From an uncultured Clostridia bacterium (GTDB taxonomy: Bacteria; Bacillota; Clostridia; TANB77; CAG-508), in assembly GCA_944391835.1 (NCBI GenBank), contig CALXVA010000002.1, positions 1 to 60,196 on the forward strand: a stretch of DNA of 60,196 nt. The letters run 5' to 3'. Below the pieces are notes generated by a model that saw nothing but the letters and a program-made list of their open reading frames with translations, was not told where the DNA came from and made no database searches. This document shows positions 28,942 through 29,255 of the stretch, in pieces. Made by a program: the position numbers and the translations under genes. Numbering within the stretch: position 1 is the stretch's first letter; each line of letters starts with the position of its first letter.

Positions 28942-29255
28942 TGGAGCCACTTGTCCGACTTGAACGGACGACCTACTGATTCATACTACTATAATTTTCA
29001 TTACCACTAAAAAGTGTTTGTAGTCTGGACTTTCTCTTTACCATAGCATTTTAATACCTTAGGTACATCGTATAAAGTCTCTACACTCGAAGATTATATC
29101 TTCTAGCTCGGGATTAGCATATATAACTTAGCCTTCCCCGAATTAGCGATGTCCACTATATATGTTTCCACATATAGGTGCAAGATAGTTCAAAATAAAA
29201 CATAAAGTTTATCTATCCCACAAGTCAGTTGCTCTACCAACTGAGCTAAAGTGGC
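28942..29255 (-). tRNA. tRNA-Thr (anticodon UGU) interrupted by a group I intron
   Basis: Exon 1 (29255..29220): GCCACTTTAGCTCAGTTGGTAGAGCAACTGACTTGT. Exon 2 (28981..28942): AATCAGTAGGTCGTCCGTTCAAGTCGGACAAGTGGCTCCA. Joined, they form a canonical 76-nt tRNA-Thr(UGU) with matching acceptor (GCCACTT/AAGTGGC) and anticodon (ACTGA/TCAGT) stems. Confidence 0.85.
28982..29219 (-). ncRNA. group I intron (IC3, tRNA-intron type), 238 nt, no ORF
   Basis: The 5' splice site follows U36, with a U.G wobble in P1 (UGU|GGGAUAG pairs with CUAUCUUGCA). The last intron nucleotide is G. Core strings AAUUCGGGGAAGGCUAAG, AAUCCCGAGCUAG, GAGUGUAGAGACU, ACCUAAGG, AAUGCUAUGG and GGUAAAGAGAAAGUCCAG closely resemble the Azoarcus tRNA-Ile and cyanobacterial tRNA-Leu introns as I remember them. 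Confidence 0.8.

What the first reader, a model, noticed from the sequence alone, without database searches (positions are those of the whole stretch)
28942..29255. Group I (IC3-type) intron in the anticodon loop of tRNA-Thr(UGU)
The two halves of a perfect tRNA-Thr are separated by 238 nt inserted after U36. The insert starts by forming a P1 helix with a U.G wobble at the splice site, and it ends in G. It contains near-identical versions of the conserved core strings of the Azoarcus tRNA-Ile and cyanobacterial tRNA-Leu introns: AAUUCGGGGAAGGCUAAG, GUGUAGAGACU, CCUAAGG, GCUAUGG and GGUAAAGAGAAAGUCCAG. The bacterial tRNA group I introns I know of are in tRNA-Leu(UAA), tRNA-fMet, tRNA-Ile(CAU) and tRNA-Arg(CCU), mainly in cyanobacteria and proteobacteria. 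An intron in tRNA-Thr(UGU) of a low-GC Firmicute would be an unusual host gene and lineage. If this is the only UGU isoacceptor, splicing is essential.
Basis: partly seen in the sequence, partly recalled or inferred. Interest (0 to 1): 0.7.

Follow-up and report, generated by a model that had tools for sequence, protein, structure and literature searches.

The report
Self-splicing intron in a threonine tRNA
A gut Clostridia bacterium has a real group I (self-splicing type) intron splitting its main threonine tRNA gene; introns in threonine tRNAs were already catalogued, but this one travels with a neighbouring DNA-cutting enzyme gene that may spread it.

Summary
On the minus strand, a tRNA-Thr(UGU) gene (29255..28942) is split after U36 by a 238-nt insert (29219..28982). 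With its intron option, ARAGORN calls tRNA-Thr(tgt) i(37,238).

The insert is an IC3 group I intron:
- Rfam Intron_gpI gives a full-length match, but only in a short scan: 40.8 bits, below the cutoff of 50.
- An explicit P1-P9 model on 31 distinct homologs pairs 99.4% of cells. 26 pairs change on both sides, against 3-5 in slid controls.
- The U.G wobble at the splice site, the terminal G, the P7 core and two GAAA-loop/receptor pairs are conserved.

The novelty claim is overstated. A 2020 preprint already lists a "Thr.5Ug" setting among 21 bacterial tRNA intron settings. The intron is common in uncultured gut Clostridia.

New here:
- Related organisms carry an intronless allele at the same locus with an identical mature tRNA.
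- An HNH endonuclease gene (28884..28495) sits just downstream of the split tRNA. Intact HNH was found in 29 of 42 intron-bearing loci and 0 of 43 intronless loci.
- HNH homologs fill phage tRNA arrays, preferentially beside tRNA-Thr(UGU).

This suggests, but does not prove, that the endonuclease spreads the intron. Splicing and cleavage are untested.

The parts
29220..29255 (-). tRNA-Thr(UGU) exon 1 (nt 1-36; acceptor 5' strand, D arm, anticodon stem 5' strand, C32 U33 U34 G35 U36)
   Evidence: Sequence read and in-silico splice. ARAGORN -i calls tRNA-Thr(tgt) i(37,238).
28982..29219 (-). IC3 group I intron, 238 nt, no ORF
   Evidence: Rfam Intron_gpI 40.8 bits, E 5.6e-9, model positions 1-253. 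Structure and covariation. Element coordinates.
28942..28981 (-). tRNA-Thr(UGU) exon 2 (nt 37-76, including the encoded CCA)
   Evidence: The same 40-mer occurs in 57 metagenome loci, both intron-bearing and intronless.
29179..29222 (-). P1: UGU|GGGAUAG (29222..29213) paired with the internal guide CUAUCUUGCA (29188..29179); U36.G wobble at the 5' splice site
   Evidence: U.G in 29 of 29 aligned sequences; 3 P1 pairs change on both sides.
29156..29177 (-). P2 hairpin with invariant GAAA loop L2 (29168..29165)
   Evidence: 6 of 9 pairs change on both sides; the loop is invariant.
29109..29140 (-). P4 (CGGG/CCCG), A-rich J4/5 and J5/4, and P5 carrying an 11-nt-receptor-like motif (GCUAAG...UAUGC)
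   Evidence: P5 pair G124-C139 covaries to A-U in 10 sequences.
29085..29107 (-). P6 hairpin
   Evidence: 4 of 8 pairs change on both sides; 100% of cells paired.
29027..29081 (-). Catalytic core: P7 5' strand GAGACU (29081..29076, A176 bulged), P3 3' strand (29070..29065), P8 with the CCUAAG/UAUGG receptor (29064..29040), J8/7, and P7 3' strand AGUCC (29031..29027)
   Evidence: Invariant in all 31 homologs and identical in sequence to the Azoarcus core strings. P3 has 2 pairs that change on both sides.
28982..29024 (-). P9 three-way junction: P9, P9a, P9b with invariant GAAA loop (28999..28996), then the terminal G (omega G) at 28982
   Evidence: P9a and P9b each have 2 pairs that change on both sides; the terminal G is invariant.
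29260..29446 (-). Upstream genes of the same cluster: tRNA-Lys(UUU) 29446..29371 and tRNA-Glu(UUC) 29334..29260
   Evidence: ARAGORN and Rfam. The order Lys-Glu-Thr is conserved in intron-bearing and intronless relatives.
29485..29513 (-). Promoter-like site TTGACA-17-TAAAAT (11 of 12 matches) upstream of the tRNA cluster
   Evidence: Consensus scan only; function is inferred.
28902..28936 (-). Terminator-like hairpin plus U run, directly after the tRNA CCA end
   Evidence: Fold -18.7 kcal/mol, z = -2.9. Conserved in intron-bearing relatives.
28495..28884 (-). Free-standing HNH endonuclease gene (129 aa, TTG start). It starts 58 nt after the tRNA 3' end, and its last 35 nt overlap the start of the SDR gene. 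Proposed homing partner of the intron.
   Evidence: Pfam HNH 27.1 bits against cutoff 21.4. Catalytic residues invariant. Linkage to the intron. Phage homologs in and beside tRNA introns.

Best explanation
The 238-nt insert is a self-splicing IC3 group I intron between nucleotides 36 and 37 of the tRNA-Thr(UGU) gene.

How it most likely works:
- The gene is probably transcribed with tRNA-Lys(UUU) and tRNA-Glu(UUC) from a promoter near 29513 (inferred).
- In the precursor, anticodon bases U34-G35-U36 plus the first seven intron bases pair with the internal guide CUAUCUUGCA to form P1. U36.G marks the 5' splice site.
- The core (P3-P8, P4-P6, P7) is braced by two GAAA-loop/receptor contacts: L2 with P8, and L9b with P5.
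- A free guanosine attacks after U36. The terminal G (28982) then enters the P7 pocket and the exons are joined.
- The product is a 76-nt tRNA-Thr(UGU), identical to the one that intronless relatives encode directly.

Shown here: the anatomy, the fold with its covariation, and the identity of the spliced product. Inferred: the catalysis itself.

Second layer, less certain (about 0.5). The intron has no ORF. It is partnered with a free-standing HNH endonuclease gene 58 nt downstream of the tRNA. I propose that the enzyme cuts uninterrupted tRNA-Thr(UGU) genes in or near the anticodon loop. Repair from an intron-bearing donor would then copy in both intron and endonuclease gene (collaborative, or trans, homing). 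The intron would protect the carrier by splitting the target site.
For: Identity of the intron:
- ARAGORN -i calls tRNA-Thr(tgt) i(37,238).
- Rfam Intron_gpI gives a full-length match, E 5.6e-9.
- My P1-P9 model plus the cloverleaf, tested on 31 distinct genes, pairs 99.4% of cells. 26 pairs change on both sides against 3-5 in slid controls, and 0 of 500 shuffles reach this.
- An unconstrained MFE fold recovers 50 of my 60 nested pairs.
- The intron aligns at about 70% identity to the Azoarcus and Thr.5Ug seeds.

Evidence that the gene is in use:
- The acceptor and T stems keep pairing through 6 double changes.
- The spliced sequence is 76/76 identical to intronless genes at the syntenic locus in about 40 metagenome loci.
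- ACA plus ACG are 60% of Thr codons.
- No other tRNA-Thr lies in the 60-kb window.

Evidence for the HNH link:
- Intact HNH occurs in 29 of 42 intron-bearing loci and 0 of 43 intronless loci.
- In a sample chosen by HNH protein, 26 of 26 informative loci carry the intron.
- The HNH gene has been deleted independently many times with different endpoints. The three intronless alleles inside the invaded clade all carry HNH wreckage.
- L159 and L122 have 99-100% identical flanks and differ only by the intron and about 340 nt of HNH.
- Homologs lie inside a phage tRNA-Leu intron, beside split phage tRNA-Asn and tRNA-Leu genes, and downstream of a phage tRNA-Thr(UGU) split 2 nt away, after U34.
- In phage tRNA arrays the nearest tRNA is Thr(UGU) about 24% of the time, against a 6.6% background.
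Against: Intron:
- The Rfam score is below the gathering cutoff, and the match disappears in larger scans.
- P4, P7 and the anticodon stem never vary, so they give no covariation evidence.
- P10 is at most about 2 bp (read from the sequence).
- Splicing was not tested.
- A second intact tRNA-Thr(UGU) elsewhere in the genome cannot be excluded.

HNH link:
- The loci are phylogenetically related, so the Fisher P values overstate independence. One ancestral co-insertion followed by losses could give much of the pattern.
- 79 of 80 phage homologs sit next to uninterrupted phage tRNAs, so an intron is not required for coexistence with the enzyme.
- A terminator-like hairpin lies between the tRNA and the HNH gene, and no promoter for the HNH gene was identified.
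- L122 keeps the HNH 3' end, so the L159/L122 difference could be a joint loss rather than a gain.
- The target site of the enzyme is unknown.
Confidence: 0.85

Rival explanations
1. The intron is real, but the HNH gene is only a neighbour. Both were inserted once in an ancestor of this Clostridia clade, were inherited vertically and decay independently. The intron is immobile, and the HNH gene is a selfish or domesticated phage-derived nuclease with some other target.
For: All intron-bearing loci fall in a few related clades on the SDR tree. 79 of 80 phage homologs sit beside uninterrupted tRNAs, so the family does not need an intron. A terminator-like hairpin separates the tRNA from the HNH gene.
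Against: No intact HNH was seen next to an uninterrupted tRNA-Thr in 43 intronless loci, and all 3 intronless alleles in the invaded clade have a broken HNH (P about 0.03 under independence). L159 and L122 differ by both elements at 99-100% flank identity. The same HNH family accompanies four other split tRNAs in phages, including an independent intron 2 nt away in tRNA-Thr(UGU).
Confidence: 0.35
2. The split gene is a dead copy. The intron no longer splices, and another intact tRNA-Thr(UGU) elsewhere in the genome supplies the function.
For: The whole genome could not be read. Splicing is untested. The Rfam score is below the gathering cutoff.
Against: Exons and the intron core are conserved across more than 30 species, with compensatory changes in tRNA and intron helices and 99.4% of cells paired. 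The locus is the ortholog of the Lys-Glu-Thr cluster gene of intronless relatives, and the spliced sequence is identical to theirs. The catalytic core, the terminal G and the U.G wobble are invariant.
Confidence: 0.05
3. The insert is not a group I intron but some other insertion, such as a protein-spliced intron, a small mobile element or an assembly artefact.
For: Default ARAGORN and Rfam at its gathering threshold report nothing here.
Against: There is a full-length group I covariance-model match. Covariation fits the P1-P9 topology including the P3/P7 pseudoknot. The core strings are identical to Azoarcus. The same insert occurs at the same site in dozens of independent assemblies.
Confidence: 0.01

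Closest known systems
Azoarcus sp. BH72 tRNA-Ile(CAU) group I intron (IC3; 'Ile2.5Ug' in Williams 2020)
   Same: Same insertion site, after nucleotide 36 of the anticodon loop. Same compact IC3 layout without P5abc. Identical core strings (GUGUAGAGACU, CCUAAGG, GCUAUGG, AGUCCAG). GAAA L2 with an 11-nt receptor in P8, and a GAAA loop in the P9 region with a receptor-like motif in P5. About 71% identity over 182 aligned positions.
   Different: Host tRNA is Thr(UGU), not Ile(CAU). The intron is AT-rich (33% G+C). P1 is longer (10 bp with a 24-nt loop). P9 is a three-way junction with P9a and P9b rather than a single hairpin. The host is a gut Clostridia bacterium rather than a betaproteobacterium.
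'Thr.5Ug' class of bacterial tRNA group I introns (K. P. Williams, bioRxiv 2020, doi 10.1101/2020.01.27.920355; seed Rba53.Thr.5Ug)
   Same: Same isotype and same site: after the fifth anticodon-loop nucleotide, with U at -1 and a terminal G. About 70% identity over 198 aligned positions.
   Different: The seed has anticodon GGU, is GC-rich and has a long P8 insertion. Whether Firmicutes Thr(UGU) cases were counted is unknown, because Table 1 of the preprint is an image that is not held. No splicing data, population data or endonuclease linkage are reported there.
tRNA-Lys(CUU) introns of other gut Clostridia and tRNA-Thr(CGU) introns of Rhodospirillaceae
   Same: These are the nearest sequence relatives of this intron family: nhmmer 122-130 bits for Lys(CUU) and 88-100 bits for Thr(CGU). 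All are inserted after U36.
   Different: Different host tRNA (Lys) or host phylum (Alphaproteobacteria). tblastn found no HNH homolog in the held sequence of the Lys(CUU) loci or of the Thr(CGU) loci.
Collaborative (trans) homing: free-standing F-CphI with the ORF-less psbA intron of cyanophage S-PM2, and T4 mobE with the I-TevIII intron
   Same: [quoted passage not shown] In these systems the endonuclease target coincides with the intron insertion site, so the intron protects its carrier (review PMC3984707; PMC6083498 and PMC2790892 listed).
   Different: Here the host gene is a chromosomal bacterial tRNA gene rather than a phage protein gene. The enzyme is a small zinc-ribbon-plus-HNH protein. 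Its cleavage site is untested, so the resemblance is in arrangement and population pattern only.
Intron-encoded endonuclease of the cyanobacterial tRNA-fMet intron (Bonocora & Shub 2001, cited in PMC3984707)
   Same: A homing endonuclease whose target is the anticodon region of a tRNA gene that carries a group I intron (title as cited).
   Different: That enzyme is encoded inside the intron. From memory it belongs to the PD-(D/E)XK family, not HNH.
Free-standing endonucleases in phage tRNA gene regions (for example T4 SegB)
   Same: An endonuclease gene embedded among phage tRNA genes. SegB acts in the phage tRNA region (PMC13096335 abstract; its role in T4 tRNA-region inheritance is from memory).
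   Different: SegB is a GIY-YIG enzyme (from memory). No intron is involved there.

Membership tests
Group I intron (Rfam RF00028) | Match to the family covariance model at or above the curated gathering score | tested here: not met
   40.8 bits against a gathering score of 50. The match is full length (model 1-253) with E 5.6e-9, but appears only in a 601-nt scan. There is no hit at gathering and none in a 52-kb scan of nine homologs. Williams 2020 notes that none of the Rfam seeds is bacterial.
Group I intron | P1 helix formed by the 5' exon end and an internal guide sequence, with a U.G wobble at the 5' splice site | tested here: met
   U34G35U36|GGGAUAG pairs with CUAUCUUGCA. U36.G is present in 29 of 29 aligned sequences, and 3 P1 pairs change on both sides.
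Group I intron | Terminal guanosine (omega G) as the last intron nucleotide | tested here: met
   G at 28982, invariant in 31 of 31 sequences.
Group I intron | Conserved core topology: P3-P8 and P4-P6 domains, with P7 forming a pseudoknot with P3 | tested here: met
   All helices are 92-100% paired. Double changes occur in P2, P3, P5, P6, P9a and P9b. P4 and P7 are invariant and so uninformative.
Group I intron | Guanosine-dependent self-splicing by two transesterifications | not testable with these tools
   This needs in vitro transcription and splicing, or RT-PCR across the exon junction.
IC3 subgroup (Azoarcus and cyanobacterial tRNA introns) | Compact core without the P5abc extension, located in a tRNA anticodon loop, with the core strings of J3/4-P4, J6/7-P7 and J8/7-P7' | tested here: met
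   The intron is 238 nt. P5 is a simple hairpin. The strings AAUUCGGGGAA, GUGUAGAGACU and AAGAGAAAGUCCAG align to the Azoarcus and Thr.5Ug seeds.
IC3 subgroup, Azoarcus-like | Two GNRA tetraloop/receptor tertiary contacts (L2 with P8, L9 with P5) | tested here: inconclusive
   The sequence motifs are present and conserved: GAAA in L2 and L9b (invariant), CCUAAG/UAUGG in P8 (invariant), and GCUAAG/UAUGC in P5. Three homologs (L050, L060, L097) lack the P5 motif. The contacts themselves cannot be shown from sequence.
Functional tRNA-Thr(UGU) after splicing | Canonical cloverleaf with anticodon UGU, under selection | tested here: met
   ARAGORN calls the spliced 76-mer tRNA-Thr. Cloverleaf helices are 100% paired, with 6 double changes. 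The spliced sequence is identical to intronless orthologs.
HNH (beta-beta-alpha-Me) endonuclease | Pfam HNH domain above its curated cutoff, with the catalytic His and Asn and the Cys zinc ligands | tested here: met
   PF01844 scores 27.1 bits against a cutoff of 21.4. C64, C67, H85, N93, N97, C102, C105 and H106 are invariant across 14 homologs. The best PHROGs HNH endonuclease family scores E 4.9e-19.
Homing endonuclease partnered with the intron (collaborative homing) | [quoted passage not shown] | not testable with these tools
   Only indirect evidence is available: the co-occurrence pattern, the decay pattern, and homologs in or beside other split tRNAs.
Homing endonuclease life cycle (invasion, decay, loss) | Presence/absence polymorphism among close relatives, independent degenerate copies, and precise intron loss | tested here: met
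   The SDR tree shows interleaved states. At least 8 different HNH deletion endpoints were seen. L122, L123 and L155 are intronless with HNH wreckage. L159 and L122 have 99-100% identical flanks.

The most novel reading that the evidence does not exclude
The ORF-less tRNA-Thr(UGU) intron and the free-standing HNH gene 58 nt downstream form one mobile unit that is still cycling (invasion, endonuclease decay, intron loss) in abundant uncultured gut Clostridia. The enzyme would belong to a large, uncharacterised family of endonucleases from phage tRNA arrays that target tRNA anticodon regions. Introns inserted 2 nt apart in the same loop (after U34 in a phage, after U36 here) would each serve as immunity against it. 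If so, this would be collaborative homing in a chromosomal bacterial tRNA gene, with phages as the likely reservoir and vector.
Probability: 0.45. Interest if true: 0.65.

Novelty: new member of a known kind. Interest (0 to 1): 0.5.

Why it matters
For annotation: this family escapes standard tools. Default ARAGORN misses it, as does Rfam at its gathering threshold or in scans of ordinary length. The main threonine tRNA of a widespread group of gut Clostridia is therefore probably missing from many genome annotations, and the genomes may be scored as lacking tRNA-Thr(UGU).

[quoted passage not shown] Here near-identical strains differ by the intron plus a neighbouring endonuclease gene. The endonuclease shows the full range of decay states. 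That makes intron gain and loss in bacterial chromosomes directly testable with existing metagenomes and one simple enzyme assay.

The HNH family, with more than 1,600 protein clusters and hundreds of phage copies, has no assigned target. A link to tRNA anticodon loops would be a concrete lead.

Tried and rejected
- Rfam at its gathering threshold on the whole window found no intron. Only the permissive 601-nt scan found it. A 52-kb permissive scan of nine homologs again found nothing. Rfam is therefore a poor detector for this family, and its silence is not evidence against the intron.
- I did not build a family covariance model. The intron is about 240 positions long, beyond the tool's stated calibration time limit, and the covariation counts already answered the question.
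- Literature searches for 'tRNA-Thr' with 'group I intron' in bacteria, Firmicutes or Clostridia gave nothing relevant. The 2014 review lists no Thr case. The relevant prior work surfaced only through a tRNAscan-related search.
- Table 1 of the Williams preprint (phylum by setting) is an image that is not held. I could not tell whether Firmicutes Thr(UGU) introns were already counted.
- My first idea that the short C-terminal HNH 'remnants' were simple decay products needed revising. That stretch also carries the ribosome-binding site and start codon of the SDR gene, so it is retained by selection. It is still truly part of the HNH protein, because inverted and phage copies keep the same C-terminus. 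The deep intronless clade lacks it.
- I first read L007 and L008 as intron-encoded HNH genes. Reading the sequence showed that both are free-standing and abut the tRNA 5' end. Only L010 is truly intron-encoded.
- The idea that an intact HNH can never coexist with an uninterrupted tRNA-Thr is rejected as a general rule. It holds in the bacterial loci, but 79 of 80 phage homologs sit next to uninterrupted phage tRNAs. Phage tRNA sequence variants may be resistant, as is usual for free-standing homing endonucleases (established knowledge, not tested here).
- L267 looked like an exception, with HNH but no tRNA-Thr upstream. It is a breakpoint inside the tRNA 3' end, from an insertion or an assembly join.
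- A PDB sequence search for the HNH protein gave only marginal McrA-type hits (E about 0.3). I did not predict its structure.
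Full report
**1. The observation**

The neighbouring tRNA genes lie on the minus strand: tRNA-Lys(UUU) at 29446..29371 and tRNA-Glu(UUC) at 29334..29260. Four bases after tRNA-Glu, the minus strand reads GCCACTTTAGCTCAGTTGGTAGAGCAACTGACTTGT (29255..29220). That is a tRNA 5' half ending in the anticodon UGU. A 238-nt insert follows (29219..28982), starting GGGAUAG and ending GUAUG. 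Then comes AATCAGTAGGTCGTCCGTTCAAGTCGGACAAGTGGCTCCA (28981..28942).

Joining the two halves gives a canonical 76-nt tRNA-Thr(tgt). ARAGORN with its intron option calls the unspliced gene tRNA-Thr(tgt) i(37,238). Default ARAGORN misses it. A composite of three of them is unique in the window and appeared in none of 100 shuffles.

**2. Is it a group I intron?**

Rfam reports nothing at its gathering threshold. A permissive scan of 601 nt gives a full-length Intron_gpI match (model 1-253): 40.8 bits against a cutoff of 50, E 5.6e-9. That match ends 25 nt before the true 3' splice site.

I wrote an explicit IC3 model from the sequence (coordinates):
- P1: U34G35U36|GGGAUAG pairs with CUAUCUUGCA, with a U36.G wobble at the splice site.
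- P2: a 9-bp hairpin with a GAAA loop.
- P3: ACAUCG with CGAUGU.
- P4 and P5: P4 is CGGG with CCCG, flanked by the A-rich J4/5 and J5/4. P5 carries a receptor-like motif, GCUAAG/UAUGC.
- P7: GAGACU with AGUCC, with a bulged A.
- P8: carries the classic CCUAAG/UAUGG receptor.
- P9: a three-way junction whose P9b arm ends in GAAA.
- The terminal G is at 28982.

To test the model I scanned one genome per species with GTGTAGAGACT..CCTAAGG..GCTATGGT. This gave 94 matches. 34 of these loci, and 31 distinct sequences once the window's own is added, are tRNA-Thr(UGU) genes split at the same site by introns of 205-243 nt. All are in MAGs labelled uncultured Clostridia, Clostridium or Clostridiales from human, rabbit, goat, sheep, deer and mouse guts. 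Where the upstream sequence is held, tRNA-Glu(UUC) lies immediately upstream.

On the alignment of the 31 distinct genes (A1), my structure gives these counts:
- 99.4% of cells form a standard pair.
- 26 pairs change on both sides, against 3-5 when the 3' partners are slid by 1-3 columns.
- No shuffle out of 500 reaches the observed values.

Double changes occur in P1, P2, P3, P5, P6, P9a and P9b, and in the tRNA acceptor and T stems. P4, P7 and the anticodon stem never vary, so they are uninformative. An unconstrained MFE fold recovers 50 of my 60 nested pairs. The intron aligns at about 70% identity to the published Azoarcus and Thr.5Ug seeds.

I conclude that this is an IC3 group I intron. 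It fails one formal membership criterion, the Rfam gathering score. This appears to be a sensitivity limit of that model. It also finds nothing in a 52-kb scan of nine clear homologs, and none of its seeds is bacterial.

**3. Is the gene used?**

Splicing was not tested, but several results point to a working gene.
- The cloverleaf helices stay 100% paired through six double changes across intron-bearing lineages.
- A metagenome scan with the 40-nt exon 2 returned 57 loci. 46 are intronless and 6 carry the intron.
- The intronless genes lie at the same syntenic locus: Lys(UUU)-Glu(UUC)-Thr(UGU), followed by a homolog of the SDR gene at window 27774..28529. In about 40 of them the tRNA is 76/76 identical to the in-silico spliced window tRNA.
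- ACA plus ACG make up 60% of Thr codons in the window's long ORFs.
- No other tRNA-Thr lies in the 60-kb window.

A second copy elsewhere in the genome cannot be excluded, because whole genomes were not readable with these tools.

**4. What is already known**

The 2014 review of bacterial group I introns lists no threonine case. K. P. Williams (bioRxiv 2020) scanned about 80,000 genomes and raised the number of tRNA intron settings from 4 to 21. The seed alignment includes Rba53.Thr.5Ug, which has the same site, U at -1 and a terminal G. It also includes Thr.3Ug, Thr.2Ug and several Lys, Ser, Asn, Asp, Tyr and Phe settings.

The host gene is therefore not new. Whether Firmicutes Thr(UGU) cases were counted cannot be read, because the table is an image. 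No splicing experiments are reported there. I rate the intron itself as a new member of a known kind.

My scan also shows the wider family. The nearest relatives of the Thr(UGU) intron are tRNA-Lys(CUU) introns in other gut Clostridia, then tRNA-Thr(CGU) introns in Rhodospirillaceae.

**5. The neighbouring HNH gene**

A terminator-like hairpin follows the tRNA. An ORF starts 58 nt after the CCA end (28884..28495, 129 aa, TTG start). It encodes an N-terminal zinc ribbon plus an HNH domain: Pfam 27.1 bits against a cutoff of 21.4, PHROGs 'HNH endonuclease' at E 4.9e-19. Its last 35 nt overlap the SDR gene start, and that stretch carries the SDR ribosome-binding site.

The gene tracks the intron.
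- Among loci chosen by intron or exon sequence, intact HNH occurs in 29 of 42 intron-bearing loci and 0 of 43 intronless loci. Any trace of HNH occurs in 37 of 42 against 2 of 43.
- Among loci chosen instead by four different HNH proteins, 26 of 26 informative loci have the split tRNA-Thr upstream. The one apparent exception is a breakpoint inside the tRNA 3' end.
- On a tree of the SDR gene, a large intronless clade has an unrelated spacer and no HNH trace, so it was never invaded or all trace is gone.
- Within the invaded clades, the HNH gene has been deleted many times with different endpoints.
- The three intronless alleles found there (L122, L123, L155) all carry HNH wreckage.
- L159 and L122 have 99-100% identical flanks. 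They differ only by the precise 238-nt intron and about 340 nt of HNH, with TTA microhomology at the deletion junction.

This is the pattern expected from the homing-endonuclease cycle of invasion, decay and loss.

**6. The HNH family elsewhere**

The family is large: 1,684 protein clusters, named at most 'HNH endonuclease'. More than 412 relatives occur in viral contigs. In 80 phage loci, 74 have a tRNA within 400 nt of the HNH gene. tRNA-Thr(UGU) is the nearest neighbour on about 24% of sides, against 6.6% of all tRNAs in those loci (P about 1e-5 to 3e-5).

Homologs accompany other split tRNAs:
- Inside P6 of a phage tRNA-Leu(UAA) intron, with the stop codon lying in GUGUAGAGACU (L010).
- Ending 10 nt before a phage tRNA-Asn(GUU) that carries an Azoarcus-like intron (L007).
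- Abutting a phage tRNA-Leu(UAA) split after U33 (L008).
- Starting 14 nt after a phage tRNA-Thr(UGU) split after U34, 2 nt from the window's site (L238).

Against a strict dependence, 79 of the 80 phage homologs sit beside uninterrupted phage tRNAs.

**7. Interpretation**

The best-supported reading is a self-splicing IC3 intron in the main threonine tRNA gene, with confidence about 0.85 for identity and function. Catalysis is inferred, not shown.

A second layer has probability about 0.45-0.5. The intron and the free-standing HNH gene may form a collaborative-homing unit like F-CphI with the psbA intron or mobE with I-TevIII in phages. The enzyme would cut uninterrupted tRNA-Thr(UGU) genes, and the intron would give immunity.

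The main rival is that the two elements are only linked by descent. The loci are phylogenetically related, which inflates the association statistics. L122 also keeps the HNH 3' end, so the L159/L122 difference may be a joint loss. An enzyme assay on intronless and intron-bearing alleles would decide.

**8. Verdict**

The finding is real and correctly interpreted. Its claimed rarity is overstated. Its added value lies in two things: the family escapes standard annotation, and it shows population-level turnover with a linked endonuclease.

Noticed in passing
window 28495-28884 (-): A free-standing HNH endonuclease gene (129 aa, zinc ribbon plus HNH) starts 58 nt after the split tRNA-Thr. Across more than 80 related loci it is linked to the presence of the intron, and it shows many independent decay states.
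   Followed up: yes
window 28495-28529 (-): The last 35 nt of the HNH ORF overlap the start of the SDR gene (27774-28529) in another reading frame. The HNH 3' end also carries the SDR ribosome-binding site. This explains why about 20 C-terminal HNH codons survive every deletion. Intronless clades that were never invaded have a different spacer and a different SDR N-terminus (MKK...).
   Followed up: yes
L007 4508-5386; L008 1892-2648; L009 4103-4371; L010 3419-4275; L238 1976-2878: Phage (IMG/VR) contigs carry group I introns in phage tRNA genes: Asn(GUU), Leu(UAA) at two different sites, and Thr(UGU) after U34. The 2014 review states that all phage introns known then were in protein-coding genes. 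I did not establish whether phage tRNA introns have been reported since.
   Followed up: partly
L162-L241 (viral contigs): This HNH family sits inside phage tRNA gene arrays, usually 3-60 nt upstream of a tRNA on the same strand. tRNA-Thr(UGU) is over-represented as its neighbour. The family's target is unknown.
   Followed up: partly
L011-L104 (genome scan): The same Azoarcus-like core pattern occurs in split tRNAs of many types and phyla, by ARAGORN calls, a few of which are unreliable. Examples are Lys(CUU) in Clostridia, Thr(CGU) in Rhodospirillaceae, Ser(CGA) in a Candidatus Doudnabacteria MAG, Ser(UGA), Ser(GGA), Arg(CCU), Leu(CAA), and CAU-anticodon genes in Betaproteobacteria.
   Followed up: partly
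window 716-791 (+): An uninterrupted tRNA-Lys(CUU) lies in the window. In other gut Clostridia (L025, L063, L064) this tRNA carries the closest relative of the Thr(UGU) intron. Conversely, L063 has an uninterrupted tRNA-Thr(UGU).
   Followed up: partly
L267 1040-1060 compared with L266 1365: The same HNH protein and downstream genes are present, but similarity to L266 begins inside the tRNA-Thr 3' end (GGCAAGTGGCTCCA). The upstream sequence is unrelated. This is either an element inserted at the tRNA 3' end or an assembly join.
   Followed up: partly
window about 29839-30133; L004 compared with L001: Contigs that carry the identical 619-aa protein differ by a 211-bp indel between the DUF1858 gene and that 619-aa TrwB-like gene. 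This is unrelated to the intron.
   Followed up: no
window 30133-35790 (+): Beside the tRNA cluster lies a run of genes with faint or clear hits to TrwB-type coupling protein, DnaB_2 and IstB/DnaC-like ATPase. In L001 an rve integrase is inserted there. The block is also present in intronless relatives, so it is not tied to the intron.
   Followed up: no
L050, L060, L097 (alignment A1, columns 127-146): Three Thr(UGU) introns have replaced the receptor-like P5 motif (CUAAG...UAUG) with a short plain hairpin, while keeping the GAAA loop of P9b. The proposed L9b-P5 contact is therefore dispensable or replaced in these lineages.
   Followed up: no
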